A stretch of 64,000 bases of DNA from an uncultured Clostridia bacterium (lineage in GTDB: Bacteria; Bacillota; Clostridia; Christensenellales; CAG-917), in assembly GCA_944372795.1 (NCBI GenBank), contig CALWAF010000002.1, positions 72,558 to 136,557 of the forward strand. Reading direction: 5' to 3'. Position 1 is the stretch's first letter, and each line of letters opens with the position of its first letter. A program made the translations under genes and the position numbers. Positions 1,532 to 12,664 of this stretch are shown one piece after another. Under the pieces are notes generated by a model. It searched no databases, was not told the origin of the DNA, and saw only the letters and a list, made by a program, of their open reading frames with translations.

Positions 1532-2821
1532 ATGGAAAACGATGCCGACAAGATCACAGCCGCTGCCGCGACCGACGCGGATCCGGATGTCGCCGCCGAC
1601 ACCTCTCCCGAGAGCACCGGCGTGCGATTCGCGCCCTCGGAGGAACGTCTTTTGAAACTCCGCGAACGCAACGTCAACCTCGACCTGCTCAAAGTCTTTG
1701 CGGTGCTGTTCATCGTCATACACCACCTCACCATCAACAACATAGGCGTTGACGGTGTGACGTTCTCCTTCATCGCGGACGGAGCCATCCCGGGCGGCGC
1801 TCTGACCACGGTGCTCGTCTCCGAGTTCATCGACGCCTTCGTCATCATCGGCGTCAACATCTTTTTCCTCATCTCGGGCTACTTCTCCATACACTTCAAG
1901 CTCTCCAAAGTGTTTTCGCTGCTCGTCAAGGTCTACGTCTATTTCTGCGTGGGCGAGCTCATCGCCTATCTCGCGGGGCTGACGTCCTTCGACTCTCCCG
2001 CAGACGCCGTGATAGAGTGCCTCACCGCTCCCGCGAAATATTGGTTCATCCTCGTTTACGTGGCGATAAGCGTCTTCGCACCCCTCTTCAACAAATTCGT
2101 GGAGTCGTTGAGCGCGAAAGGCGCCCGTTACTTCACGGTGGTGAGCCTTCTGCTCTTCTGCATCGTGGGTTTCGTCGCGGACTTTTTCGGCGAGTTCATC
2201 GGCACCAAAGAGGGTTACGCGCCGCTGTGGGGCTTCGTCGTATACATCTACGGCAGACTCATCGCCCGCTTCGGGTTCGGGCTAAAACGCAAGCCTTCCT
2301 TCTGGGCAGTGATGTACATCGTGTGCGCGCTGCTCAACTACGCCGTCGTAGCCGCCGTCACCGCAGCTGCAGGCGACGGCAAATGGGCGTGGCATCTGTA
2401 TAGCTACAACAATCCCCTCGTGCTCGCGGCATCCGTGGCGTTCTGCATGATATTCGTCACGGCAAAGCCCCTGCCCGCGGCAGGCAAAGCCGCAAAACTC
2501 ATCGTGACGCTTGCGGGGCGCTCTCTCGGCGTTTATCTTCTGCACAGCAACAACCCGCTCATCTCGCCGTACAGAGCTTTCCTCGTCGATCTCTGCGCGG
2601 CGGATACCCTGTGGCTGCAATACGTCCTGCTCCTGCCCGACGTCCTCATCCTGTTTGTGGCGCTGTCGGCTGCGGACTTCCTCTTTGACAAGATATCCAC
2701 CCGTCCGATCGCCGCTTTTGCGGGTCTGCTCTCCCGCGCGATAGAGCGCCTCTACGCCTTCATCCTGAAAATTGCGGGACGCCTGTTCGGCACGGACAAA
2801 GAGGAAACGCCCACCCCGTGA
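1532..2821 (+). CDS. Acyltransferase family 3 (OafA/YrhL-like) integral membrane protein
   Basis: 429-aa polytopic membrane ORF. The N-terminal LDLLKVFAVLFIVIHHL motif is characteristic of membrane acyltransferase_3 proteins. Confidence 0.7.
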   Translation: MENDADKITAAAATDADPDVAADTSPESTGVRFAPSEERLLKLRERNVNLDLLKVFAVLFIVIHHLTINNIGVDGVTFSFIADGAIPGGALTTVLVSEFIDAFVIIGVNIFFLISGYFSIHFKLSKVFSLLVKVYVYFCVGELIAYLAGLTSFDSPADAVIECLTAPAKYWFILVYVAISVFAPLFNKFVESLSAKGARYFTVVSLLLFCIVGFVADFFGEFIGTKEGYAPLWGFVVYIYGRLIARFGFGLKRKPSFWAVMYIVCALLNYAVVAAVTAAAGDGKWAWHLYSYNNPLVLAASVAFCMIFVTAKPLPAAGKAAKLIVTLAGRSLGVYLLHSNNPLISPYRAFLVDLCAADTLWLQYVLLLPDVLILFVALSAADFLFDKISTRPIAAFAGLLSRAIERLYAFILKIAGRLFGTDKEETPTP

Positions 2822-2860
2822 ACACATGGTGAAAAAGGCGGATTTTCGTCCGTGAAATAC

Positions 2861-2889
2861 TTGTCAAACTCGGAGGGATAATATATAAT
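2861..2889 (+). promoter_or_regulatory. Sigma-A-type promoter upstream of tRNA-Ser
   Basis: TTGTCA (2861-2866), a 17-nt spacer, then TATAAT (2884-2889), about 112 nt upstream of the tRNA. Confidence 0.55.
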
Positions 2890-3001
2890 CGTTTCGTTGG
2901 GTTTTCCGAGACGCTCTCTCTCGGAGCGACAGTTGGATCGAGCGGTCTTGTTTTCCGCCTCATCCAACTGCCACCCACTTAATTTATGTGCGCAAGCACG
3001 T

Positions 3002-3094
3002 GGAGGAGTCGCCTAGTTTGGTCGAGGGCGCACGACTGGAAATCGTGTAACCGTCAAAAGCGGTTCGAGGGTTCGAATCCCTCCTCCTCCGCCA
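3002..3094 (+). tRNA. tRNA-Ser (anticodon GGA), CCA encoded
   Basis: Hand-folded cloverleaf. The acceptor is GGAGGAG/CTCCTCC and the anticodon stem is CACGA/TCGTG with loop CUGGAAA (anticodon GGA). A long variable arm (ACCG..CGGT) is typical of Ser, and the T arm is GAGGG-TTCGAAT-CCCTC. The discriminator is G, followed by CCA. Confidence 0.93.
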
Positions 3095-3097
3095 GTA

Positions 3098-3135
3098 AGA
3101 ACCTAAATCGAACCCTCGGTTTAGGTTCTTTTTCT
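3098..3135 (+). terminator. Rho-independent terminator after tRNA-Ser
   Basis: Perfect 10-bp stem AGAACCTAAA/TTTAGGTTCT with a 12-nt loop, followed by TTTTTC. Confidence 0.85.
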
Positions 3136-3256
3136 TTATTCTTTTCCGCTTTTATTATTGCATATAACGTCGTCAAACCGCCTATATCGGCTTGTAGCCG
3201 TTTGTATTGAGTTATTTGGTCAATCGCATACAAGCGGACGGTTTATGCCGCGAAAG

Positions 3257-3379
3257 CCGCTTGACGTGAGAAAGGCGTATGGTAGGCTATTTGCCAACGG
3301 CAAACTAAAAGCCCCTTGGGGCGTTTGGTCTTGGCTCTTTGCCTGAATACCATACGCCGCAGAGGCTCGCGTCAAGCGG
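3257..3379. repeat. Large imperfect inverted repeat just 3' of the recombinase remnant
   Basis: The left arm is CCGCTTGACGTGAG-AAA-GGCGTATGGTA (3257-3284). The right arm (3348-3379) reads CCGCTTGACGCGAG-CCTCTGC-GGCGTATGGTA in reverse complement. The 63-nt interior (3285-3347) has two small hairpins, TTGCC-AAC-GGCAA and GCCCC-TT-GGGGC. Confidence 0.7.
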
Positions 3380-3403
3380 AACGTGGAATAAATAGTCCGC
3401 GCT

Positions 3404-4540
3404 TTATATGCGCATTATCAGTTGAAAGTCAATCATTCTCGGCTGCTTTACGTTCTGAATATATATCGGGTACGGCACGTTGTCCGTATAAAAGGAAAAG
3501 CCCTGACTTTCGTCAAGGCTTATCGTTCTCGGGGTGTTGTATACGATTATCATTTTATCGTCGAACAACTGTATTTCTTTTACAAGCAGATTTATCAGCA
3601 TTTTCGGTTCTTGCTCCAACGCGAATTTATAAAAGTCAGCAATTTCCTTTCTGTCGAGTTTGAACGCCGAATGAGATTGCTCTATGCGTATCTGTTTTTC
3701 GAGTTCCGCATTTTTCTCTTCGAGTTCTCGTAATCGTTTCATCGCCGTGTTGCTCGTGCCGCCGTTTTCGATAGCGGTCATAATATTGTTTATGGAGTTT
3801 TCCGTAGCGCGTTGTTCTTTAACTAATCTCGTCAATGCCGAATTGGCTTTTATGTAATCCTCCTGCATTGTCATTAGTTCGCTGACGATATAGTCCATAT
3901 TGTTGCTTAACTGCGTTATGATATTTTCAAGCACATAATTTTCAAGGACTTCCTTTCTTGCTTGGGACTTTTTACAGCCATTGCCGTTCTTACGCCCCAA
4001 ACACTTGTAATAGCGTTTTCGCTCGCCGTTCTTTGCCGTGCCGCACTCCGCGCTTACGGGACTGCCGCAATAGCCGCATTTCATTTTATGGCGCAATAAA
4101 TATACGACTTCGGTACTGCGTTTTCCGTAATGATTGCTGTCTATCTTTTTACGGACAATATCGTATGTTTCCTGCGGTACGATTTGCGGATAGATATTGG
4201 TGAACACTTCGCCGTTATATCTGTATATCCCTGCGTATTTTTCGTTTTTGAGTATGTTGTAAACGGTATTTCGGGCGAAAGGCTTGCCGCGATTATAAAT
4301 GCCTTTTACGGTCAACGCCTTTATAATATCTTTTACATACACACCTATTGCGTATTGCTCGAAAATATATTTCACCGTTTCGGCTTTATCTCCGTTTCGA
4401 CACTTGAAATTATACACTATTTTTCGCTTTGAGCGTGAGTAGGTGAAAGTATACTTTCCGTAGCAAAACCGACACTTTCCGATACTGAAAGTATACAAAC
4501 AGCGAAAAACCGCCGATATACGGATACCGACGGTATACAT
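3404..4540 (-). pseudogene. Large serine recombinase lacking its N-terminal catalytic (resolvase) domain
   Basis: The 378-aa ORF has a recombinase-domain-like segment (ETVKYIFEQYAIG..IIKALTVKGIYNRGKPFARNTVYNILKNEKYAGIYRY). It also has a zinc-ribbon (KCGYCGSPV..YYKC..NGCK) and a C-terminal coiled coil. No Ser-containing resolvase domain is present. An in-frame stop lies 4 codons upstream of the first Met, and only about 170 nt separate it from the next cassette. Confidence 0.7.
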
Positions 4541-4564
4541 TAGCGTTACAACTCAAATACAGCC

Positions 4565-4622
4565 GCACGGGAGATAAGGGCGGATCGCCAAGCAGTTCAG
4601 CGGCGACCGCCCGTTCCCGTGC
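4565..4622. repeat. GC-rich extended hairpin at the recombinase/cassette junction
   Basis: The outer arms are GCACGGGA (4565-4572) and TCCCGTGC (4615-4622). The inner arms are GGGCGGaTCGCC and GGCGACCGCCC. Confidence 0.65.
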
Positions 4623-4656
4623 GCTTTGAGTTTCGCTTTGTTCTGTTGTTTGTTAT

Positions 4657-4713
4657 GGCGGGTGCTTGAACGGCGAGGCGCAGCCGAGCCGCTCGTTTAT
4701 TCAAGCACCCGCC
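4657..4713. repeat. Hairpin with a perfect 14-bp stem at the junction
   Basis: GGCGGGTGCTTGAA (4657-4670) pairs with TTCAAGCACCCGCC (4700-4713) around a 29-nt GC-rich loop. Confidence 0.7.
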
Positions 4714-4766
4714 ACAGTGCCATTTGAAGTTTTTCAAGAATTCTACGTTCGCAAACTCAATAGCGG

Positions 4767-4795
4767 TTGAAAAATTTAGAAATTTATGCTATAAT
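4767..4795 (+). promoter_or_regulatory. Near-consensus sigma-A promoter of the island cassette
   Basis: TTGAAA (4767-4772), a 17-nt spacer, then TATAAT (4790-4795) with a TGc extended -10. It lies about 20 nt upstream of the GTGAGG SD and the ATG at 4817. Confidence 0.65.
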
Positions 4796-4816
4796 AATAA
4801 AAAAGTGAGGTTGATT

Positions 4817-5689
4817 ATGAAATCGTTTAGAGATTATAAAGCTGAAGAAAGAAGAAATTATATTACCTTATCATCAGGGGAGTATTATCCTGACATTTTG
4901 GTTGATGCATGTAAATTATATTCTCCTGTATTAACTATTTTTTCAGAATTATTGCATTCCTCCGAAAGTTCTATAGCCCTATTTAAAAACATTTGTAAGA
5001 CACCCACTCAATGGATGAGAATTCAACTTTGTAGAGTATTTAGAAAGTACTGCTCTCCTGAAACACCAGTTGAGATGCTTAAAAAATCTTCCCAAGTAAT
5101 CAAAATATGTAATGAGTTTGGTGAGGGATTTCGACCAATTAACATTATCCAAGAAAGATTTGATTCTCGTCCTTTCCCTGATGAAGCGTTATGTGCTGTT
5201 CTTTGGGAGTATAAAGACAGAGGGCAAAAGGGATACGATTTGACCGAAAAGTTTTTTGACATCATTGAGTCTACATTTTCAGATGTTATTATTTGGGGTC
5301 CCCGTCGTTCTGGCGCAGATATTCAACCAATATCGTTTTGGAAAGACTATCCTAATGCTCGTCGTCCGCTTGATTTTGTAATTTCATCTCCTGATAAATC
5401 TGTTATTTATGCCGTGGGTCTTGCGAGATATGATGGCGATAGAGGTGGTGCTCAAGAGGATGATAGAACTGGTGGATACAAAAACTGTGCAGACGAAATA
5501 CTAGACTATGTAAAAAGCCACAATCTTCACACAAAAGTCATATTTGTAAATGACGGTCCAGGATTGTTGTTAGGGTCTATGTGGGAAGACTACTCTATTA
5601 TCGAAGAAAGATACAAAGACGAGTGTATCGTGACAACATTAAGAATGATTCCAGAAAGGATTTCTAAAGAATGGTTACTTGGACGGTAA
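4817..5689 (+). CDS. Hypothetical 290-aa protein; candidate restriction endonuclease or effector partner of the downstream methyltransferase
   Basis: I chose the ATG at 4817, which has a GTGAGG SD and lies downstream of the promoter, rather than the track start at 4724. The ORF is AT-rich and ends 6 nt before the methyltransferase ATG. I could not assign any catalytic motif. Confidence 0.6.
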   Translation: MKSFRDYKAEERRNYITLSSGEYYPDILVDACKLYSPVLTIFSELLHSSESSIALFKNICKTPTQWMRIQLCRVFRKYCSPETPVEMLKKSSQVIKICNEFGEGFRPINIIQERFDSRPFPDEALCAVLWEYKDRGQKGYDLTEKFFDIIESTFSDVIIWGPRRSGADIQPISFWKDYPNARRPLDFVISSPDKSVIYAVGLARYDGDRGGAQEDDRTGGYKNCADEILDYVKSHNLHTKVIFVNDGPGLLLGSMWEDYSIIEERYKDECIVTTLRMIPERISKEWLLGR

Positions 5690-5695
5690 AACAAA

Positions 5696-6937
5696 ATGGC
5701 AACTGGGATACCTAAGAAAAAAAAATCTTCAAAAAATAGTATTATTGAATTAAAATATGATATAAAAATAAACAAAGAAGATTTATTGCAATCTCATTAT
5801 TCTTGCTATACCGATATTTGGAGGACTCAAGACAATGCATTCAATAAACTGTTTTATGGTGACAATTTAGATGTTCTTCTTTATTTGCTCAATAATGGCT
5901 ATAAAAATACTGTCAATTTGATTTACATAGATCCACCATATTCGACATCATCAGTGTTTGTAAATCGTGAGCAGAAAGTTGCCTACCATGATACTTTAGA
6001 TGGATATGATTATATTGAGTTTTTACGAAGGCGTTTCTTAATTATGTATGATTTGCTTTCTCAAACTGGCTCTTTTTATATTCATTTAGATGAGAGAATG
6101 GTTTTCCCTATAAAAATAATTTTAGATGAAATTTTTGGCGTTTGTAATTTTAGAGCATTCATTACACGAAAAAAATGTTCACCCAAAAATTCCACAAGAA
6201 CTACCTATGGGGATATTTCGGACTATATATTGTTTTACTCCAAAACGAAGAATTATGTGTGGAATAGACCATATGTAGCCTGGTCGAATGAAAAAATAAT
6301 AGAACAATACCCTTGTATTGATGAAGCCACTGGACGCCGATATAAAAAAGTTCCTATACATGCACCAGGGGTAAGAAATGGAGATACGGGAAAACCCTGG
6401 AGAGGTATGATGCCTCCACTTGGAAAACACTGGCAATATACACCTGAAAAATTAGATATGCTTGATGCTGCTGGTGAAATAGCGTGGAGTAAAAATGGAA
6501 ATCCCAGAAGGAAAGTCTTCTTTGATGGAAAACAAGGCATTCCAATGCAAAATATTTGGCTTGATTATCAGGATTTTGTTAACCAATCCCAGATTTCGAC
6601 TGGATATCCAACAGAAAAAAACATTGAAATGTTAAAAACAATTATTTCAGCATCTTCCAATAAAGGCGATATCGTACTTGATTGCTTTGCTGGAAGTGGA
6701 ACAACACTATCGGCGGCCGAGTTGCTTGAACGGCGTTGGATTGGCGTTGATAATAGTCAAGAAAGTATACAAACTATAATTTCACGTTTGCTATTTGAAG
6801 AGCAATCTTATGGGGATTATGTAATCAAACGACGTAGTAATTCTTGTAGCAGGAAACTTACGAAGTGTGCCTTTCAAATCTTTGCAATTGAGAAAGATAA
6901 AAACAATATTATTTCTTATTGCAACTTAAACAAATAA
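5696..6937 (+). CDS. Site-specific DNA methyltransferase, beta-class N6_N4 family (probably N6-adenine)
   Basis: 413-aa ORF. Motif IV LIYIDPPYSTSS precedes motif I VLDCFAGSGTT, which is the beta-class order. FYGDNLDVLLYL and DEIFGVCNFRAFI resemble Mod-like methylases. Confidence 0.88.
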   Translation: MATGIPKKKKSSKNSIIELKYDIKINKEDLLQSHYSCYTDIWRTQDNAFNKLFYGDNLDVLLYLLNNGYKNTVNLIYIDPPYSTSSVFVNREQKVAYHDTLDGYDYIEFLRRRFLIMYDLLSQTGSFYIHLDERMVFPIKIILDEIFGVCNFRAFITRKKCSPKNSTRTTYGDISDYILFYSKTKNYVWNRPYVAWSNEKIIEQYPCIDEATGRRYKKVPIHAPGVRNGDTGKPWRGMMPPLGKHWQYTPEKLDMLDAAGEIAWSKNGNPRRKVFFDGKQGIPMQNIWLDYQDFVNQSQISTGYPTEKNIEMLKTIISASSNKGDIVLDCFAGSGTTLSAAELLERRWIGVDNSQESIQTIISRLLFEEQSYGDYVIKRRSNSCSRKLTKCAFQIFAIEKDKNNIISYCNLNK

Positions 6938-6978
6938 CAATTCGATTTACGTTACTAACGCTCCGCCACAGCAGAAAA

Positions 6979-7011
6979 ATGCGAACCCCGAAAAGGGGTG
7001 CGCATTTTTTT
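6979..7011 (+). terminator. Rho-independent terminator of the cassette
   Basis: ATGCGAACCCC-GAAAA-GGGGTGCGCAT forms an 11-bp stem with one mismatch, followed by T7. Confidence 0.85.
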
Positions 7012-7141
7012 GTTGCAGCAGAGGCGGAGAAAAGGGACGAACCCTTGCGGCATAAAGTCAATTTGAGCAAAGACAAATTCCCGATATATGCATTCATAAA
7101 TGTGTGTGCAAACGACATGTTACCGCAGGGTTCGGCGGCTT

Positions 7142-7765
7142 GCGAAGCAAGACGCTTTCGCCTTTTCCTACGGCTTATAAAAGGCACAAAGTCTGCTGAA
7201 ACGTTATACCTATTCGGCGTCATGACCTTATGGCGAACATCCCTCCGCCATTGCATGAGTCGGAGGGATTCTTACCCGTGGCTGACGCGAGTTGTTCGGT
7301 GACGATTTTCCTCCCCGCACGACACTCGTTGATCAACGGCACCACGACGAAAATCCCACACATCTTCCTTTTCCCCTCACATCCTCGCTATTCCGTCGCG
7401 CTTCGCGCTCCTTACGAATCCCTCCATACTATGCGAAGCAAGACGCTTTCGCCCTTATGCCCCACAAAGTGTCCTCACTTTCTCCCCGCGGAAAATTATT
7501 TGCATGGACCTCACGTTGCGGTACTTTGCGGGGACCCCGATTTTAGCGAACATCCCTCCGCCATTGCATGAGTCGGAGGTATCCTTACCCGTGGCTGACG
7601 CGATTTGTTCGGCGGCGCGCACGGCGCGACGCTTTCGCCCTATGCCCCACAAAGTGTCCTCACTTTCTCCCCGCGGAAAATTATTTCGCATGGACCTCAC
7701 GTTGCGGTACTTTGCGGGGACCCCGATTTTAGCGAACATCCCTCCGCCATTGCATGAGTCGGAAG
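7142..7765. repeat. Tandem or dispersed intergenic repeat array (about 186-bp unit)
   Basis: Units at 7442-7627 and 7628-7765 are near-identical over 138 bp, differing by two single-nt indels. A partial 72-bp module sits at 7233-7304. The head motif GCGAAGCAAGACGCTTTCGCC occurs at 7142-7162 and 7433-7453. Each copy carries a CCCTCCG-N13-CGGAGGG hairpin. Confidence 0.85.
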
Positions 7766-7775
7766 GATATTACAA

Positions 7776-7805
7776 TAAAAAACGGGCGGACATTTACGTC
7801 CGCCC
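7776..7805 (-). terminator. Rho-independent terminator of the GPH transporter gene
   Basis: The minus strand reads GGGCGGAC-GTAAAT-GTCCGCCC followed by G TTTTTT, about 25 nt after the stop at 7830. Confidence 0.85.
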
Positions 7806-7829
7806 TTGTGGTGCGCTCCGCGCGGGAGC

Positions 7830-9272
7830 TCAATCGTCGTTGTTGGGGAGCGTGATGAGCTGCTCGTCCTCGTCCGTTTTGTTGAGCTTTTCCTGCATTT
7901 CGGCGACCTGCTTTTTGCCGAGGTTGTAGATGAGCATGAATGACACGAACATCACCACGGCGCCTATCAGCATCAAGCCTATGCTCATCTTTACCATGGC
8001 ATCGGGGACGCCGGGGTCTTGATTGCCGATGGGATCCGCCTGCGGGTTGTAGCCCACCGCCTGCATACAAAGCAGCGGCAGCGAGAGCGCGACACCCTGC
8101 GCGATCTTCCTGAACAGGCTGTATATCGCGTAGACGGAGCCCTCTTCGCGCATACCCGTCTTCAGTTGCTGATAGTCTATACAGTCGTTGACCATCGCCC
8201 ACGTGATCAGGTTGAACATACCGCCGCCCGTTTGGATGAACATGAGCCCGACGATGTAGGTGATCATACCCGTGGTGTTGCCGGGTATGGGGACGCACAG
8301 CATGACGACAGACGCGATGATGCTCAAGAGGAAGGGCATCCCGACAGAAACTTTCTTGCCGAATTTCGCCACGATCTTGGACGTGAACGGCAGGAAGAAG
8401 ACTATCGGGAGATAAGATATGATGGTGCAGACGGTGATGAGGCTCGCGTTATGGAAATGGATCTGGAAGAGCCACTTGGAGGTGTGCGAGCCGGACATGA
8501 AGAAGACGATGGATGCAAACGACGCAAGGCAAAGCGCAAGCAGAGGTCTGTTGTGCAAGAAGCCTTTCAGCGTCTTGAGATAGTTGATCTTCTCACGCCT
8601 CTCGGGAGGCACGATTACACGTTCCGTCGTCATCCTGATGCAGAGGAAATAGGCGACGAACGCGACGACGCCCAACCCCAGCGCCACCCACACGAGGATG
8701 TCGCCCATCAGGTTTTCCTGCTCGTCGTAAAGCAGGAGGGGAAGCAACATGCTGATGCCGCCGCCGGCTGCGGCGCCGATGGAACGCCACGTCGAGAGCG
8801 AAGTCCTCTCAAGCGGATCCGCCGTGATGGCTGCGGAGAGGGACCCGTACGGCACGTTCATCAGCGTGTAGCAAACGTCCCAGCTGAGATAGGTCACTAT
8901 ACACAGCGTGACTTTGAGCCATAGCTCGGCATCGGGCAACGGCAGGAACACCAACGCCCCCGTCACAGTGAGCCCCACCGCCGCAATGGTCATCCACGGT
9001 TTGAACTTGGAGCCGCTTTTGCCTATGCGCACCGAGTCCATGATCCCGCCCATGATGGGGTCGTTGATGCCGTCCCACACCTTGGTGAAGATGATGATCG
9101 CCGACCATATCGCGCCGGGGATGCCCATATATTGGGTGTAAAAGTCGAGCATGAACGCCGAGATGAGCGAAAAGCTCAAGTTGCACCCGAAATCCCCTAG
9201 GGCATATCCCACCTTGTCGCGCATACCGAAAGGCCGCACGTCTTTTTTGATCTCATAACATGCTTCCTGCAT
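7830..9272 (-). CDS. Glycoside-pentoside-hexuronide (GPH):cation symporter family MFS transporter
   Basis: 480-aa, roughly 12-TM ORF. The N-terminal RDKVGYALGDFGCNLSFSLISAFMLDFYT is typical of MelB/GPH symporters. A GGGGGA SD is present, and the gene lies downstream of the GH2 gene. Confidence 0.8.
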   Translation of the reverse strand: MQEACYEIKKDVRPFGMRDKVGYALGDFGCNLSFSLISAFMLDFYTQYMGIPGAIWSAIIIFTKVWDGINDPIMGGIMDSVRIGKSGSKFKPWMTIAAVGLTVTGALVFLPLPDAELWLKVTLCIVTYLSWDVCYTLMNVPYGSLSAAITADPLERTSLSTWRSIGAAAGGGISMLLPLLLYDEQENLMGDILVWVALGLGVVAFVAYFLCIRMTTERVIVPPERREKINYLKTLKGFLHNRPLLALCLASFASIVFFMSGSHTSKWLFQIHFHNASLITVCTIISYLPIVFFLPFTSKIVAKFGKKVSVGMPFLLSIIASVVMLCVPIPGNTTGMITYIVGLMFIQTGGGMFNLITWAMVNDCIDYQQLKTGMREEGSVYAIYSLFRKIAQGVALSLPLLCMQAVGYNPQADPIGNQDPGVPDAMVKMSIGLMLIGAVVMFVSFMLIYNLGKKQVAEMQEKLNKTDEDEQLITLPNNDD

Positions 9273-9348
9273 GGTTTCCCCCTTGTCACTTGTTTTGCTT
9301 CTGCAGCAGACGCCTGCGCATACCGCCGTGCGGGCAGTTGCCCGTGTG

Positions 9349-11493
9349 TCACTTCTTTATCGTCTGCAGATATCTGTCCACCATCGAGATCATCTGCTCG
9401 TCCATTTTGACGAAAGGCAGCTTCATGAGCGTCCTGACGCGGAAGGGCTTGACCAGCGCGAGCAGGAACTTCGGCACCTTGTTGCCGACGAACTTCTTGA
9501 TGAGCACCTGCACCTCGGCGTTCTTCACGAGGTCGCCCACTTTATCTGCGGTGCTGAAACGCGTGGGATCTATCTCGTCGGAGTCGGACGCGAACCAATT
9601 GCGCACGAAGCTCTCGCAGCCTTCGGGCATACGATACTCCGCGGGTTCCTCGTCCACGCCCTCTATCTCGAGGGTGTCCGTGAGCCCTCCCGATGTGACC
9701 TTGACAAGGTTGCTCCCCTTCTTTATCGGCACTGCCGCGAACTTGAAGACGTGCGCGCCTTCGAGTTCCGCGGAATATTCCCCCACCTCGAGTTTCACCT
9801 TGTCCACGTTGCCGTACACTTTGATCTCGGAAGGACCCGCCTTACGCTTCAGATACCTCTCCCCCGCGATCTTGACGAAGGGCTCGTCCGACCACCACGC
9901 CTTGTAGACATAGAAGGAGTCCTTTTTCACGGCACGGTCTATGGTGACGAGCCCCTTGTTGTTGCGTCCTCTGACGCCGCCCTCGTTCCTCGCTGCGGAA
10001 CCGAAGTCGAACATATTCCAGACATAGCTGCCCCACAGCCAGTCGGCGGCGGCGATCCGCTCAATATAATTCTCGTGGTAGACTGCCTGATAAGACTCCG
10101 AGTAGTCCCCGGGCACGGGCGCGGGATTCTGATATTTTATTATGCCCTCCGCGCCGTACTCCGAAAGACAGAGTTTCTTGTCGGGAGCCACCTCGCGCCA
10201 ATTTTTCATCCACTTGTCAAGGTCGCGGAAAGTGCCGACATACCAGCCGAAGTAGTGGTTGTAGCCGAGGATATCCGTGACGGAGTTGAGGGGGGAATCC
10301 GCAGGGCACATCGTCACCGCAGCCATGACGGTGGGACGGGTGTCGTCCATGCTCTTCGCAAGTTCGTTAAGTTCGACAAGCGCCTTCTTGAGCCCCTTGC
10401 TCTCCCCCGCTATCGTGATCTCGTTGGAGATGCTCCAAGTGAATATCGAAGGATGGTTTTTTGCCTGAAGAATGAGTTCTTTCAGTTGAGAGAGTGCGTT
10501 TAACTGCCGTTTCGGTGAAAATCGGGAGATGACGGGCACTTCCGCCCACACCAGCAGACCCGCCCTGTCGCACAGTGTATAGAAATAGTCGGAATGCTGA
10601 TAATGCGCGAGTCGCACGGAGTTCGCGCCCACCTCTTTGATGAGTCTTATATCCTCTTCGTGCATCTCGGGAGTGAGAGCGTTGCCCACACCCTCCCTGT
10701 CCTGATGGCGGGACACGCCCTTGATCTTCAGGTGTCTGCCGTTCAGGAAAAAGCCTTTGTCGCTGTCGAAGGAGAAATATCTGAACGCGGTCTCCACCTT
10801 GACCGAGTCGCCGCCCTCTATCGCCGCAGTCAGTGTGTAAAGATAGGGGTCATCGACATCCCAAAGGTGAGGCGAGGTGACTTTTATGACGGCTTTGCCG
10901 TCCGCGCCCTTTGCCTTCGCTGCGCCCACGGCATTGCCCTCCGCATCGTTCAGCACGAACAGGACGGACGCGCCCTTCGCGCTTTCGGACACCTCGAAGT
11001 CGATGCCGACCTCCCATGCACCCTCCTTCTTGCGCGGCGTCACCCACACGCCCGTGCCGTTTGACGTGGGCAGGAAATGTTTGTCGGGACAGAGCAGCAG
11101 GTTCACTCCCCTGTAAAGTCCGCCGTAGAAGGTGAAGTCCGCCATGGTCGGGTATACCGCGTCGTTCGGCGAATTGTCCACCGCGATCTCGAGCTTCGCT
11201 TCCTTCCCGAGCTTGCCGGTGAGCTCCGTCCAAAATGCCGAGTAGCCCCCTTCGTGTCTGCATAGGCTGACACCGTCGAGGAAGACTTCCGCCACGGAAT
11301 TTGCCGCGAGGACTTCAAGATAACACACTCCATTTTCGGGCGCGAGCGTCTTGGAATAGACGCCTTTGGTGCGCAGATATCCGTTCGTGCCGTCCTGACC
11401 GTCGGAGCCGTTCCAAGTGTGCGGCAGATCTACGCCGAAACTTTTTCCGTCAAGTTGCAGTTGCCAATTGGCGTTCAGACTTACTCTTTCCAT
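9349..11493 (-). CDS. Glycoside hydrolase family 2 (beta-galactosidase/beta-glucuronidase-like)
   Basis: 714-aa ORF. It has the GH2-type N-terminal sugar-binding region (NANWQL..LPHTWN) and HPSIFTWSISNE, the acid/base NE motif. The TIM-barrel segment RLAHYQHSDYFYTLCDRAGLLVWAE is also present. Confidence 0.85.
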   Translation of the reverse strand: MERVSLNANWQLQLDGKSFGVDLPHTWNGSDGQDGTNGYLRTKGVYSKTLAPENGVCYLEVLAANSVAEVFLDGVSLCRHEGGYSAFWTELTGKLGKEAKLEIAVDNSPNDAVYPTMADFTFYGGLYRGVNLLLCPDKHFLPTSNGTGVWVTPRKKEGAWEVGIDFEVSESAKGASVLFVLNDAEGNAVGAAKAKGADGKAVIKVTSPHLWDVDDPYLYTLTAAIEGGDSVKVETAFRYFSFDSDKGFFLNGRHLKIKGVSRHQDREGVGNALTPEMHEEDIRLIKEVGANSVRLAHYQHSDYFYTLCDRAGLLVWAEVPVISRFSPKRQLNALSQLKELILQAKNHPSIFTWSISNEITIAGESKGLKKALVELNELAKSMDDTRPTVMAAVTMCPADSPLNSVTDILGYNHYFGWYVGTFRDLDKWMKNWREVAPDKKLCLSEYGAEGIIKYQNPAPVPGDYSESYQAVYHENYIERIAAADWLWGSYVWNMFDFGSAARNEGGVRGRNNKGLVTIDRAVKKDSFYVYKAWWSDEPFVKIAGERYLKRKAGPSEIKVYGNVDKVKLEVGEYSAELEGAHVFKFAAVPIKKGSNLVKVTSGGLTDTLEIEGVDEEPAEYRMPEGCESFVRNWFASDSDEIDPTRFSTADKVGDLVKNAEVQVLIKKFVGNKVPKFLLALVKPFRVRTLMKLPFVKMDEQMISMVDRYLQTIKK

Positions 11494-11728
11494 ATTCCCT
11501 CTATGCGCGCATATTCGCGTTTCTTATAAAAAAGTATACAATGTTAAATAGGCATCTTTCAACCCCGAATTTTGCTCCCTACACCCAAAGCGACTTTTTT
11601 GCCAAGAAATGCCAACCCGATGACAAGATATGCAATGCTTTACCGCGTTTTTGCGATCCCGCCGGATAGAACGGCGCCCTGCGTTTTGTGCTTTCTGTCG
11701 AAAAAAACGACCTACACCCTACGTTTCG

Positions 11729-11758
11729 TTGACAGCCGCGTCGCTTTTGCGCTATCAT
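11729..11758 (+). promoter_or_regulatory. Candidate promoter for pnuC
   Basis: TTGACA (11729-11734), an 18-nt spacer, then TATCAT (11753-11758). Confidence 0.4.
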
Positions 11759-11787
11759 TCCGACACTGCCACCGGGTAGGGATGTTC

Positions 11788-11842
11788 CATCCGCAGATGC
11801 ACCGTTAGGTCTTTGAAGGTGTATCGGCGGATGTTGTTTTTT
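11788..11842 (+). promoter_or_regulatory. Terminator-like attenuator hairpin in the pnuC leader
   Basis: CATCCGC..GCACC-(14-nt loop)-GGTGT..GCGGATG is followed by TTGTTTTTT. It ends about 3 nt before the GAGGTG SD and 10 nt before the ATG at 11852. Confidence 0.45.
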
Positions 11843-11851
11843 GAGGTGAAC

Positions 11852-12664
11852 ATGAAAGACGGCGAAAGCATAGGACGGACCGCCATCACAACGGAGCGCA
11901 CGTCATGGACGGACGCACTGCGCCGTTTCGTGCGCTATTTCACGCCCTTCGAGATCGCGCTTTGGGCGTGCTCCGTGGTGCTCATCTCGGTGGCGTACGG
12001 CGTCTTCGACGGCGAAAGACCTCTCAATCTCGCAGCCTCTCTGATCGGCGCGACTTCCCTAATCCTTACGGCAAAGGGCAATGCGATGGGGCAGGTGCTC
12101 ATCATCGTGTTCAGCGTGCTCTACGGCATCATCTCCTACTCCTACGCCTATTACGGCGAGATGATCACTTATCTCGGCATGTCCGCTCCGATAGCCCTGC
12201 TCGCCGTCATAGCGTGGCTGAAAAACCCGTATGCGGGGAAAAAGAGCGAAGTCAGGGTGAACAGGATCCCCATCCGCGAGCACATATTCCTGTGGGCGCT
12301 AGCCGCAGCCGTCACCACGGCGTTTTACTTCATTCTGGAAGCGTTCGACACCGCAAATCTCATCCCCAGCACGGTGTCCGTGACGACAAGTTTCGTCGCC
12401 GCCTACCTCACCTTCCGCCGCAGTCCACTCTACGCCCTCGCCTACGCCGCAAACGACATCGTGCTCATCGTGCTGTGGGTGCTTGCCGCCATAGACGACA
12501 TCACATACGTGTCCGTGGTCATATGCTTTATCACCTTCCTTGTTAATGACCTCTACGGTTTCATAAGCTGGTCAAGGATGAAGCGCAGACAGCACGCGGA
12601 CACGGACACGGTCTACGTCCGAAGCGCCTCTCACGCGGGAAAAGGTGTCGCGGAAAAAGCGTAA
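11852..12664 (+). CDS. pnuC: PnuC-family nicotinamide riboside (vitamin) transporter
   Basis: The 270-aa membrane ORF starts at an internal ATG with a GAGGTG SD. The Trp/Asn-rich helices (AWLKNPY, ANDIVLIVLWVLAA, LVNDLYGFISWSR) resemble PnuC. Confidence 0.65.
   Translation: MKDGESIGRTAITTERTSWTDALRRFVRYFTPFEIALWACSVVLISVAYGVFDGERPLNLAASLIGATSLILTAKGNAMGQVLIIVFSVLYGIISYSYAYYGEMITYLGMSAPIALLAVIAWLKNPYAGKKSEVRVNRIPIREHIFLWALAAAVTTAFYFILEAFDTANLIPSTVSVTTSFVAAYLTFRRSPLYALAYAANDIVLIVLWVLAAIDDITYVSVVICFITFLVNDLYGFISWSRMKRRQHADTDTVYVRSASHAGKGVAEKA

What the first reader, a model, noticed from the sequence alone, without database searches (positions are those of the whole stretch)
3136..7765. AT-rich island wedged between tRNA-Ser(GGA) and the GPH/GH2 sugar operon
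Composition changes right after the tRNA-Ser terminator (3098-3135). The interval contains only mobile or defence-type content: a serine recombinase remnant, the R-M-like cassette, and hairpin and repeat junk. Normal host genes resume at the MFS terminator (7776). The flanks are ordinary chromosomal genes, with a LacI regulator and an acyltransferase on the left and the GPH symporter and GH2 on the right. This looks like a fossilised integrative element that can no longer excise. Serine integrases do not usually target tRNA 3' ends, so the tRNA adjacency could be coincidental or could reflect an older, different integration event.
Basis: partly seen in the sequence, partly recalled or inferred. 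Interest (0 to 1): 0.6.

Follow-up and report, generated by a model that had tools for sequence, protein, structure and literature searches.

The report
Crippled serine-integrase element at tRNA-Ser end
The AT-rich island is a 3.9-kb mobile element carrying a BstEII-type restriction system. It was inserted exactly at the last 8 bases of a serine tRNA gene by a serine integrase that has since lost its catalytic half, and it belongs to a large gut-Clostridia family of such integrases that systematically use tRNA gene ends, a target normally credited to tyrosine integrases.

Summary
The island is real, but its limits are 3095-6960, not 3136-7765. GC is 38.5% against 58.5% for the genome, and it holds the three lowest-GC 1-kb windows of the whole assembly.

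It is bounded by an 8-bp direct repeat, CTCCGCCA, which is the tRNA-Ser 3' end. Two inverted arms rebuild a 46-bp serine-integrase-type attP. Relatives have empty sites.

Contents:
- a large-serine-recombinase remnant, with the catalytic domain, the rolling-circle rep gene and a small ORF lost in one ~2.2-kb deletion at 4391-4395
- a conserved two-hairpin segment
- an intact BstEII-like restriction-modification (R-M) pair with its own promoter

6961-7765 is host DNA: the native tRNA terminator plus a genus-wide tRNA-linked repeat.

The tRNA adjacency is not coincidental. In 52 of 80 related integrase loci a convergent tRNA lies within 1 kb downstream of the integrase gene, covering 18 tRNA species, with none upstream.

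The backbone is 96% identical to an intact element in a host whose core genes are only 67-77% identical. The cargo is 98% identical to that of an element with a different backbone. The same crippled island is found in six samples of this species.

The scan has reported tRNA-targeting serine-integrase/Rep elements before, in candidate phyla radiation (CPR) genomes.

The parts
3002..3094 (+). tRNA-Ser(GGA), intact. It is the only Ser-GGA gene in the assembly. Its last 8 nt (3087-3094, CTCCGCCA) form the attL core.
   Evidence: ARAGORN; Rfam tRNA, 56.6 bits; genome-wide tRNA list.
3095..3130 (+). Element left end. The P' arm GTAAGAACCTAAATCGAA (3095-3112) doubles as the 5' half of an element-borne terminator hairpin (3097-3130) for the tRNA.
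   Evidence: 15-pair hairpin followed by a T-run. The same motif, nnnnnAACCTAAAnCGAAC, directly follows CCA at 52 related loci on 18 tRNA species. It is absent from empty tRNA-Ser(GGA) sites.
3242..3335 (.). Family-conserved non-coding block. It contains the invariant TTTATGCCGCGAAAG (3242-3256), a promoter-like TTGACG-16-TAGGCT (3261-3288, + strand, antisense to the recombinase gene) and the recombinase terminator hairpin GCCCCTTGGGGC (3311-3322, acting on the - strand). The role of the first two is unknown.
   Evidence: 78 copies in the fetched family loci. RNAalifold finds no supported common structure on either strand.
3404..4540 (-). Large serine recombinase remnant. The homologous part is 3404-4391 and covers the Recombinase domain, the zinc ribbon and the C-terminal region. 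Codons 1-50 of the 378-aa ORF (4392-4540) read through former upstream non-coding DNA. The Resolvase catalytic domain is missing.
   Evidence: Pfam PF07508 at 7e-16 and PF13408 at 7e-10, with no PF00239. 95.9% nt identity to the intact 522-aa-frame gene of L105 over window 3066-4395.
4391..4395 (.). Junction of a ~2.2-kb deletion. It removed the first ~190 codons of the recombinase, the HUH rolling-circle rep gene and a small ORF.
   Evidence: Homology to L105 ends at 4395, and homology to the upstream segment of L068 begins at 4391. The intact layouts are seen in L011, L016 and L148.
4396..4723 (.). Conserved backbone segment with two long hairpins (4565-4622 and 4656-4714). It is the most conserved piece of the family. 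It is probably a cis-acting replication or recombination site, and it is the crossover zone for cargo swapping.
   Evidence: 80-97% identical in 15 loci. Single-stranded DNA fold of -56 kcal/mol, z = -8.6. The cargo-module homology to L148 starts at 4578.
4767..4795 (+). Promoter of the cargo operon: TTGAAA-17-TATAAT with an extended -10 TG.
   Evidence: 11 of 12 consensus positions. A similar TTGAnn-N17-TGCTATAAT is present in G010:C3 and G010:C7.
4817..5689 (+). Type IIP restriction endonuclease, a full-length homologue of BstEII (which recognises GGTNACC). The true start is the ATG at 4817, not the TTG at 4724.
   Evidence: PDB 9ibq BstEII, E = 5e-81, residues 2-287 aligned to 3-285 of 288. 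3473 homologues, the best non-self at 79% identity.
5696..6937 (+). Beta-class N6/N4 DNA methyltransferase, the partner of the endonuclease.
   Evidence: Pfam PF01555 at 1.7e-45. PADLOC MTase_II PDLC03354 at 9e-137, near full length.
6941..6968 (.). Element right end. The P arm TTCGATTTACGTTACTAACG (6941-6960) is followed by the attR core CTCCGCCA (6961-6968).
   Evidence: The same arm followed by nTCCrCCA occurs at five other element ends. It is identical in L148, where homology to the window stops exactly at 6968.
6961..7023 (+). Native terminator hairpin of tRNA-Ser(GGA). This is host sequence, the B' side of attB.
   Evidence: It directly follows the tRNA in G013:C1 and in metagenome contig L065, and follows the paralogous tRNA-Ser(TGA) of this genome.
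7024..7765 (+). Host tRNA-linked repeat modules. Each ends in a pseudo tRNA 3' end, GCGAACATCCCTCCGCCA, at 7233-7250, 7546-7563 and 7732-7749. They are not part of the island.
   Evidence: GC 53%. An 86% identical copy lies at C1:54401-55069, downstream of tRNA-Ser(TGA). The repeat occurs across the genus. Strains differ by one 186-nt unit.

Best explanation
Window 3095-6960 (3,866 bp) is an integrated, recently crippled member of a family of small (about 1-6 kb) elements of gut Christensenellales and other Clostridia.

An intact member reads, from the tRNA outward:
- the P' arm and its own terminator hairpin
- a conserved non-coding block
- a large serine integrase, convergent with the tRNA
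- an HUH rolling-circle Rep
- a small ORF
- a conserved two-hairpin segment
- a promoter
- a variable, mostly nuclease/defence cargo slot
- the P arm

The integrase recombines a ~46-bp dyad-symmetric attP (TTCGATTTACGTTACTAACGCTC|CGCCAGTAAGAACCTAAATCGAA) with the 3' end of a tRNA gene. Exchange occurs inside the last 7-8 nt, so the tRNA stays intact, receives a new terminator from the element, and keeps its old terminator at the far end.

Inference: the universally conserved T-loop (GTTCGAnTC) serves as the distal (zinc-ribbon) recognition motif of the attB half-site. It lies 5 bp nearer the crossover than the matching TTCGnTTT motif in both attP arms, as in the structural model for the Listeria innocua (LI/A118-type) serine integrase. 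The acceptor-stem 3' strand would set which tRNA is used.

In this genome the element entered tRNA-Ser(GGA) carrying a BstEII-type R-M system. It then lost rep and the catalytic half of the integrase in one ~2.2-kb deletion, so it can neither replicate nor excise on its own.

Inference: the intact R-M pair, expressed from its own promoter, both protects the host and makes loss of the island costly (279 GGTNACC sites in the chromosome). This would explain why the same crippled island is found in all sampled strains.
For: Boundaries and empty site:
- There is an 8-bp direct repeat CTCCGCCA at 3087-3094 and 6961-6968.
- G013:C1 and metagenome contig L065 read tRNA-Ser...CTCCGCCA|CAGCAGAAAAATGCG..., identical to window 6961 onward. 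L065 also shares the LacI-acyltransferase-tRNA-Ser synteny.
- G010:C2 and G008:C3 are also unoccupied.

Serine-integrase att architecture:
- The P arm and the reverse complement of the P' arm match in 15 of 23 positions around a CC centre (read from the sequence).
- Core repeats are 8, 8, 7 and 17 nt in four attL/attR pairs.
- Serine-integrase cores of 8-12 bp are stated in PMC9303363.
- The 5-bp shift of the zinc-ribbon motif between attP and attB is described in PMC3783163. Here TTCGA starts 23 nt from the centre in both arms and 18 nt from it in the tRNA.

Family:
- Intact relatives carry Resolvase + Recombinase + Zn ribbon, plus a PF23343 Rep with HUH motifs.
- A convergent tRNA lies within about 800 nt downstream of the integrase gene in 17 of 30 loci.
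- A convergent tRNA lies within 1 kb downstream in 52 of 80 loci, with 2 co-oriented and 0 upstream, across 18 tRNA species. In every listed case CCA is directly followed by a P'-type hairpin (a more divergent form at a few loci).

Deletion: homology breaks at 4391-4395.

Horizontal transfer and modularity:
- The backbone is 95.9% identical to L105, whose host core genes are 67-77% identical.
- The cargo, hairpin segment and P arm are 97.9% identical to L148, whose integrase region is only 69% identical.

Cargo:
- The endonuclease matches BstEII at E = 5e-81 over its full length, the methyltransferase is full length, and there is a strong promoter.
- Other members carry GmrSD, NERD, GIY-YIG, HNH and CoiA-like nucleases.

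Presence in strains: an identical truncated island at the same site in contigs from six samples, at 99.9-100% identity.
Against: No recombination was observed. The crossover dinucleotide and the T-loop/zinc-ribbon reading rest on symmetry and on a model built for another integrase.

The attB right half-site shows no motif in the expected register. A TTCGCATTT lies 4 nt too far out.

28 of the 80 related loci show no tRNA within 1 kb. Some are cut by contig ends, and some sit at pseudo-tRNA ends, as in G015:C12 and G010:C7. Other targets are therefore not excluded.

No recombination directionality factor was identified.

Rep was assigned only by a Pfam hit (6e-13) and motifs. It has no plasmid relative in PLSDB and only two database phage hits.

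GGTNACC is only mildly depleted (observed/expected 0.77, rank 6 of 64 comparable palindromes). Activity of the R-M system is therefore unproven.

No relative shows tRNA-Ser directly beside MFS/GH2. In G013 those genes lie on another contig.
Confidence: 0.87

Rival explanations
1. Two independent events: an old serine-recombinase element remnant (3095-4723), and a separately mobile R-M cassette that later inserted beside it in this chromosome.
For: GC differs between the parts: 41-50% for the backbone against 33-37% for the R-M genes. The R-M pair has thousands of close homologues in unrelated taxa, for example 74% identity in Actinobacillus.
Against: The family has a cargo slot at exactly this place, between hairpin 2 with its promoter and the P arm. 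That slot is filled with other AT-rich nuclease genes in relatives. The P arm and attR core follow the methyltransferase stop codon by 3 nt. L148 carries the same R-M, hairpin segment and P arm (97.9% identity) inside an element that still has rep and a full-length integrase, at another chromosomal site. The cargo therefore travelled as part of such elements. Swapping happened between elements, not by insertion into this locus.
Confidence: 0.07
2. The element is not dead. It is a non-autonomous passenger that a related incoming element could excise and move in trans, because attL, attR and the conserved cis segments are intact.
For: Both att sites match the family consensus. Gene-poor mini-elements that keep only the arms, the hairpin segment and cargo exist at 0.75, 1.1 and 2.3 kb: G020:C58, G010:C7 and G036:C9. 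The remnant ORF is uninterrupted, with pN/pS 0.09 against an intact relative.
Against: This genome has no close integrase. The only other large serine recombinase, at C1:152136, is 40% identical. The island is identical in six samples, with no occupied/empty polymorphism seen.
Confidence: 0.25
3. The tRNA adjacency comes from a tyrosine-integrase island that once sat here, with the serine-recombinase element merely landing inside it.
For: tRNA 3' ends are the classic targets of tyrosine integrases (PMC5704250, PMC10484663). The pseudo-tRNA repeats downstream could be scars of such elements.
Against: The island contains no tyrosine recombinase or remnant of one. The element's own arms abut the tRNA CCA and the native terminator with nothing in between. 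The same juxtaposition recurs at 18 tRNA species for this recombinase family.
Confidence: 0.03

Closest known systems
Phage/ICE-type large serine integrases (LI/A118, Bxb1, phiC31, TP901-1, SPbeta; CcrB and XisF by NCBIfam similarity)
   Same: Domain order in intact relatives is Resolvase-Recombinase-zinc ribbon. attP is a short dyad-symmetric site. The core identity is short (7-8 bp). The distal arm motif lies 5 bp further out in attP than in attB, as in the LI integrase model (PMC3783163).
   Different: The target is the extreme 3' end of tRNA genes (18 species) instead of the interior of protein-coding genes. The element supplies a replacement terminator. The carrier is a 4-6 kb rolling-circle Rep element rather than a phage, ICE or SCC cassette. 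The window copy lacks the catalytic domain.
Tycheposons of Prochlorococcus (bioRxiv 10.1101/2020.12.28.424599)
   Same: Small tRNA-proximal integrative elements with an integrase, a replication module and variable adaptive or defence cargo. They show tandem accretion, degraded remnants and partial tRNAs at the same hot spots.
   Different: 910 of 937 tycheposon-type elements use tyrosine recombinases, and their replication genes are primase/helicase types. Here the integrase is a large serine recombinase, replication is by an HUH Rep, the host is a gut Firmicute, and the duplicated tRNA piece is only 8 nt.
Serine-recombinase integrative mobilizable elements of Firmicutes (Tn4451 family and streptococcal IMEs; PMC5704250)
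   Same: Small size, a single large serine recombinase, very short direct repeats at the ends, and cargo of a few genes.
   Different: Those elements insert within, and disrupt, dispensable protein genes such as rumA, and they carry relaxase/oriT modules. No relaxase was seen here, the tRNA target is preserved intact, and an HUH Rep of the PF23343 type is present.
BstEII restriction-modification system (PDB 9ibq/9ic8)
   Same: The endonuclease aligns over its full length with about half of positions identical (E = 5e-81). It is adjacent to, and co-oriented with, a beta-class methyltransferase.
   Different: Recognition sequence and activity were not tested. GGTNACC is only mildly under-represented in the host.

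Membership tests
Large serine recombinase (serine integrase) integrative element | N-terminal Resolvase catalytic domain with the nucleophilic serine | tested here: not met
   The window ORF has no PF00239 match. The domain was deleted at 4391-4395. It is present in the 96%-identical relative L105 (MKTGVIYCRYSSDSQ...) and in L011 and L016.
Large serine recombinase (serine integrase) integrative element | Recombinase domain plus zinc beta-ribbon domain C-terminal to the catalytic domain | tested here: met
   PF07508 at 7e-16 and PF13408 at 6.7e-10.
Large serine recombinase (serine integrase) integrative element | Short att sites: an imperfect inverted-repeat attP of about 50 bp, and attL/attR sharing only a short core | tested here: met
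   46-bp dyad reconstructed from the two ends, with 15 of 23 symmetric positions. Core repeats of 7-8 nt in three attL/attR pairs, 17 nt in one.
Large serine recombinase (serine integrase) integrative element | Demonstrated attP x attB recombination with a 2-bp crossover | not testable with these tools
   Needs an in vivo or in vitro assay.
Genomic island acquired by insertion (occupied versus empty site) | Related genomes carry the uninterrupted target with the same flanks | tested here: met
   L065 (same LacI-acyltransferase-tRNA-Ser synteny) and G013:C1 join the tRNA end directly to the sequence at 6961 onward. The right-hand MFS/GH2 adjacency was not found in any relative.
Type II restriction-modification system (BstEII-like) | Endonuclease homologous to a characterised Type IIP enzyme, next to a DNA methyltransferase, both full length | tested here: met
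   endonuclease; methyltransferase.
Type II restriction-modification system (BstEII-like) | Cleavage and methylation at GGTNACC | not testable with these tools
   Only site counts were possible: 279 sites, observed/expected 0.77.
Rolling-circle (HUH Rep) replicon | HUH Rep gene with motifs I-III | tested here: not met
   Absent from the window copy (deleted). Present in relatives: PF23343 and the motifs FVTFTY, HFHGIFY and YLLKYIEK.
Tyrosine-integrase tRNA island | Tyrosine recombinase gene, and a direct repeat of roughly 15-60 nt of the tRNA 3' part | tested here: not met
   No tyrosine recombinase among the island ORFs. The repeat is 8 nt.
Integrative mobilizable element (IME) | Relaxase and/or oriT for conjugative mobilisation | tested here: inconclusive
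   No relaxase family appeared in the Pfam, NCBIfam or PHROGs scans of backbone genes. Rep-related relaxases exist, and the hairpin segment could be an oriT. This is not resolved.

The most novel reading that the evidence does not exclude
This integrase family has turned the universal tRNA T-loop into the fixed distal recognition motif of its attB. It retargets among tRNAs simply by changing what it reads in the acceptor-stem 3' strand. That would explain how one family occupies at least 18 tRNA species while never damaging the tRNA.

The genus-wide tRNA-linked repeat modules downstream (window 7024-7765) each end in an exact or near copy of the local tRNA 3' end. They would act as extra landing pads (pseudo-attB arrays) on which such elements accrete, as seen in G015:C12 and G010:C7.

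If so, the family is a natural set of orthogonal serine integrases whose targets pre-exist in every bacterium.
Probability: 0.35. Interest if true: 0.75.

Novelty: new variant of a known kind. Interest (0 to 1): 0.6.

Why it matters
Textbook and review statements assign tRNA 3' ends to tyrosine integrases and gene interiors to serine integrases. Here a whole family of serine integrases, abundant in gut Clostridia, uses tRNA ends with base-pair precision and leaves the tRNA intact.

Serine integrases need only short sites and no host factors. A family whose attB is a conserved tRNA end would therefore be useful for genome engineering of uncultured or non-model bacteria, and it gives a direct test of the attP/attB register model.

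Biologically, the family looks like a minimal shuttle for single defence genes between distantly related gut bacteria: 96-98% identical modules occur in hosts whose core genes are about 70% identical. This window shows how such a shuttle becomes a resident defence locus, by losing its integrase head and rep while keeping an addictive R-M pair.

Tried and rejected
- **Partial tRNA copies.** Partial matches to window 3066-3146 in other genomes first looked like element-borne tRNA 3' copies. They are simply other tRNA-Ser genes, some occupied by related elements.
- **Rfam scan of 2800-8000.** It found only the tRNA. Nothing matched the hairpin segment or the conserved block.
- **RNAalifold on the conserved block 3242-3335.** No supported structure on either strand, so I do not call it an RNA.
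- **Covariation analysis of the 4540-4723 hairpins.** Dropped, because the copies are too similar.
- **GGTNACC avoidance.** Observed/expected is 0.77, too weak to argue for or against long residence.
- **Rep relatives.** No PLSDB plasmid hit, two weak or unannotated phage-database hits, no PDB hit. I could not place the backbone among known plasmids or phages.
- **A second family-type attL at C1 tRNA-Ala(GGC).** No recognisable element genes.
- **Metagenome scan for the empty junction.** It returned one contig, from a different species (about 82% identity). No empty site within this species was found.

Full report
**1. The observation**

The window is contig C2:72558-136557 of a 1.6-Mb, 52-contig assembly with 58.5% GC.
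- Between about 3100 and 6960 the GC content drops to 30-45%.
- The three lowest-GC 1-kb windows of the entire assembly lie here. The genome-wide 1-kb mean is 0.585 with sd 0.041.
- The tetranucleotide distance from the genome mean peaks at z = 7.7, the highest value in the genome.

On the left are a LacI-family regulator, an Acyl_transf_3 protein and tRNA-Ser(GGA) at 3002-3094. On the right are an MFS_2/GPH transporter and a GH2 hydrolase. The compositional anomaly is therefore real and far beyond chance.

The stretch 6961-7765 has 53% GC and is not anomalous.

**2. Exact boundaries and empty sites**

The last 8 nt of the tRNA, CTCCGCCA (3087-3094), recur at 6961-6968.

In G013:C1 (same genus) and in metagenome contig ULTA01032709.1 (L065), the tRNA end runs straight into CAGCAGAAAAATGCGAACCC..., the sequence that follows 6968 in the window. 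In a four-way alignment the only columns shared by the window's two junctions are the eight bases of the core. L065 also shares the LacI-acyltransferase-tRNA-Ser synteny at 67-83% identity.

G010:C2 and G008:C3 also have unoccupied tRNA-Ser(GGA) genes, with other terminators followed by the same repeat family. Within this genome, tRNA-Ser(TGA) on C1 has the same core and an 86% identical copy of 6961-7609. It shows what the locus looked like before insertion.

The island is therefore 3095-6960 (3,866 bp).

No relative was found with tRNA-Ser directly beside MFS/GH2. In G013 those genes are on another contig, and the tRNA there abuts, in inverted orientation, the gene that lies at 11.9 kb in the window. 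The neighbourhood has therefore been rearranged.

**3. Anatomy**

- **Recombinase remnant.** The ORF at 3404-4540 (-) has the Recombinase and zinc-ribbon domains but no Resolvase domain.
- **What intact relatives carry.** G010:C3, G004:C1 and L148 carry, on the same strand, a 500-524-aa integrase with all three domains. Upstream of it is a ~300-aa protein matching PF23343, with the HUH motifs FVTFTY, HFHGIFY and YLLKYIEK. Next comes a small ORF, and then a conserved non-coding segment.
- **Deletion.** The closest relative, L105, is 95.9% identical over window 3066-4395, and homology stops at 4395. Homology to the upstream segment of L068 begins at 4391. One ~2.2-kb deletion therefore removed the first ~190 integrase codons, rep and the small ORF. 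It fused the rest of the integrase frame to former upstream DNA.
- **Hairpin segment.** The segment 4396-4723 contains two long hairpins. As single-stranded DNA it folds at -56 kcal/mol, z = -8.6. It is 80-97% identical in 15 loci, far more conserved than the integrase gene, which is 67-71% identical.
- **Cargo.** A strong promoter at 4767-4795 precedes a 290-aa protein that aligns end to end with BstEII (E = 5e-81). It is followed by a full-length beta-class N6/N4 methyltransferase.
- **Right end.** The methyltransferase stop codon is followed 3 nt later by the right arm and the core.

**4. The ends have serine-integrase architecture**

The right arm TTCGATTTACGTTACTAACG and the reverse complement of the left arm (TTCGATTTAGGTTCTTAC) are imperfect inverted repeats. 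Joined, the ends give a 46-bp dyad centred on the CC of the core, with 15 of 23 positions symmetric.

The same right arm, followed by nTCCrCCA and a terminator, ends five other elements. Four attL/attR pairs have core repeats of 8, 8, 7 and 17 nt.

Short cores (8-12 bp) and short att sites are the serine-integrase pattern (PMC9303363).

In both arms the TTCGnTTT motif begins 23 nt from the centre. In the tRNA the T-loop TTCGA begins 18 nt from it. That is the 5-bp inward shift of the zinc-ribbon motif that distinguishes attB from attP in the LI integrase model (PMC3783163).

The shift is measured directly from the sequence. Its mechanistic meaning is inference. The right half of attB does not show the motif in register.

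**5. The tRNA adjacency is a family property**

- **Host family.** Among 30 integrase loci from the host's family, 17 have a tRNA within about 800 nt downstream of the integrase stop codon, and all 17 are convergent.
- **Species-level loci.** The set is 80 loci from the species-representative collection: Christensenellales and other gut Clostridia MAGs. One genus member is titled Candidatus Limadaptatus stercorigallinarum. Of these, 52 have a convergent tRNA within 1 kb downstream, 2 a co-oriented one, and none a tRNA within 1 kb upstream. Only 71 loci had at least 700 nt of flank.
- **tRNA range.** Eighteen tRNA species are used. In every listed case CCA is followed directly by an element-type terminator hairpin, in most of them nnnnnAACCTAAAnCGAAC.
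- **Chance expectation.** With about 40 tRNAs per 1.6 Mb, chance predicts about 1%.
- **Pseudo-tRNA ends.** Some members sit at pseudo-tRNA ends rather than true tRNAs, as in G015:C12 and G010:C7.

Reviews in the held library assign tRNA targets to tyrosine integrases and intragenic targets to serine ones. I found no description of such a serine-integrase family there. The scan itself has reported analogous elements in CPR genomes.

**6. History**

- **Backbone transfer.** The backbone is 95.9% identical to an intact element at tRNA-Ser(TGA) in a genome whose core genes match the window's at only 67-77%. This indicates recent horizontal transfer.
- **Cargo exchange.** The cargo, from 4578 inside the hairpin segment to the last base of the core at 6968, is 97.9% identical to that of L148. 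There the integrase region is only 69% identical, rep is present, and the chromosomal flank differs. Cargo modules are therefore exchanged between backbones, with the conserved segment as the crossover zone.
- **Cargo in other members.** These are GmrSD, NERD-zinc ribbon, GIY-YIG, HNH, CoiA-like nuclease with DUF1643, and a PNPOx-like protein. All are AT-rich.
- **Age of the truncation.** The remnant integrase differs from L105 by 33 synonymous and 12 non-synonymous changes in 328 codons (pN/pS 0.09), without stops or frameshifts. The truncation is thus young relative to that divergence, or the DNA-binding remnant is still constrained.
- **Presence in strains.** Contigs from six samples of the same species (99.9-100% identity) carry the identical truncated island at the same site. 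They differ only by one 186-nt repeat unit. Because those contigs were retrieved through the exact endonuclease protein, they could not have revealed a strain with an empty site.
- **Timing.** The island is absent from other species of the genus. The insertion and the deletion therefore postdate speciation and predate the sampled strain diversity.

**7. Mechanism and persistence**

Shown:
- the insertion at the tRNA end
- the architecture of the att sites
- the loss of the catalytic domain and of rep
- the intactness of the R-M genes and their promoter

Inferred:
- integration by the element's own serine integrase with crossover in the core
- the T-loop acting as the zinc-ribbon motif
- rolling-circle replication of the excised form, with the hairpin segment as an origin
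- stabilisation of the crippled island by the R-M pair

On the last point, the chromosome has 279 GGTNACC sites and only mild depletion, observed/expected 0.77.

The genome has no close integrase that could act in trans. The best is 40% identical.

**8. What 6961-7765 is**

After the native terminator hairpin (6961-7023) come modules that each end in GCGAACATCCCTCCGCCA, a near copy of the tRNA-Ser 3' end.

In this genome the same module family lies 30-60 nt downstream of, and co-oriented with, tRNA-Ser(TGA), Leu(TAA), Arg(ACG), Ala(CGC) and Ser(GCT). At four of these (Leu(TAA), Arg(ACG), Ala(CGC), Ser(GCT)) the modules end in an exact copy of the last 14-17 nt of the local tRNA, in most cases followed by a copy of the local terminator. 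The module body is conserved between loci and across the genus.

These modules are host-composition sequences, not part of the island. They provide extra attB-like sites that family elements do use. Their origin is unexplained.

**9. Limits**

- Rep could not be tied to known plasmids or phages.
- The conserved block at 3242-3335 has no assigned function. It holds the invariant TTTATGCCGCGAAAG and a promoter-like TTGACG-16-TAGGCT.

**10. Verdict**

This is a real, precisely delimited, recently immobilised member of a large family of serine-integrase/rolling-circle elements that target tRNA ends and carry defence genes. The window's copy is an ordinary decayed island. The family behind it is the unusual part.

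Noticed in passing
window 7024-7765; G000 C1:54401-55069, C1:127701-127824, C5:41349-41535, C8:10741-11290, C8:57876-58052: A genus-wide repeat of about 150-190 nt lies 30-60 nt downstream of, and co-oriented with, tRNA genes. Each module starts with the reverse complement of the local T-arm 3' strand. It has a conserved body (GGCTGACGCGAGTTGTTCGG...CATCCTCGCTATTCCGTCG...CTCCTTACGA) and ends in an exact or near copy of the local tRNA's last 14-17 nt including CCA, in most cases followed by a copy of the local terminator. The origin is unexplained. Possibilities are mini integrative elements with long repeats, or scars of another element family.
   Followed up: partly
window 7442-7765 versus L147 and L151: Strains of the same species (99.9-100% identical) differ by exactly one 186-nt unit of the repeat array, so the array is copy-number polymorphic.
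   Followed up: partly
window 3242-3335: A non-coding block between the element's left end and the integrase stop codon, conserved in 78 family loci. It contains the invariant TTTATGCCGCGAAAG, then TTGACG-16-TAGGCT with conserved hexamers and a variable spacer (promoter-like, reading antisense into the integrase gene), then the integrase terminator. No common RNA fold was found.
   Followed up: partly
L148 6478-7971 (Logan ERR13959505_17149): Directly beyond the attR of the element that shares this window's R-M cargo lies a DarT-Macro (DarTG) pair at 29% GC. A second copy of the cargo-slot promoter follows, with two small ORFs. This suggests tandem accretion of defence modules at one tRNA-type site.
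   Followed up: no
G000 C1:119418 (tRNA-Ala GGC), C1:140004 (tRNA-Leu CAG), C21:1728: There are further family-type left ends in the same genome. A P' hairpin follows tRNA-Ala(GGC). A variant hairpin follows tRNA-Leu(CAG), ahead of a ~13-kb low-GC region that ends near a 40%-identical large serine recombinase at C1:152136-153641. An attP-like junction sits at a contig end on C21.
   Followed up: partly
G000 C23:242-796: A second Rep homologue (52-55% identical over its C-terminal 180 residues) lies at the low-GC start of contig C23. Its integrase, if there is one, lies beyond the contig end.
   Followed up: no
window 2843-11800 versus G013:C1 (L013), G008:C3 (L014) and G007:C70 (L026): In three genus members the tRNA-Ser(GGA) gene lies back to back with the homologue of the gene at window 11813-12664 (NMN transporter/PnuC type). 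This implies an inversion or rearrangement of the ~9-kb tRNA-to-GH2 block in one lineage, possibly via the repeat modules.
   Followed up: no
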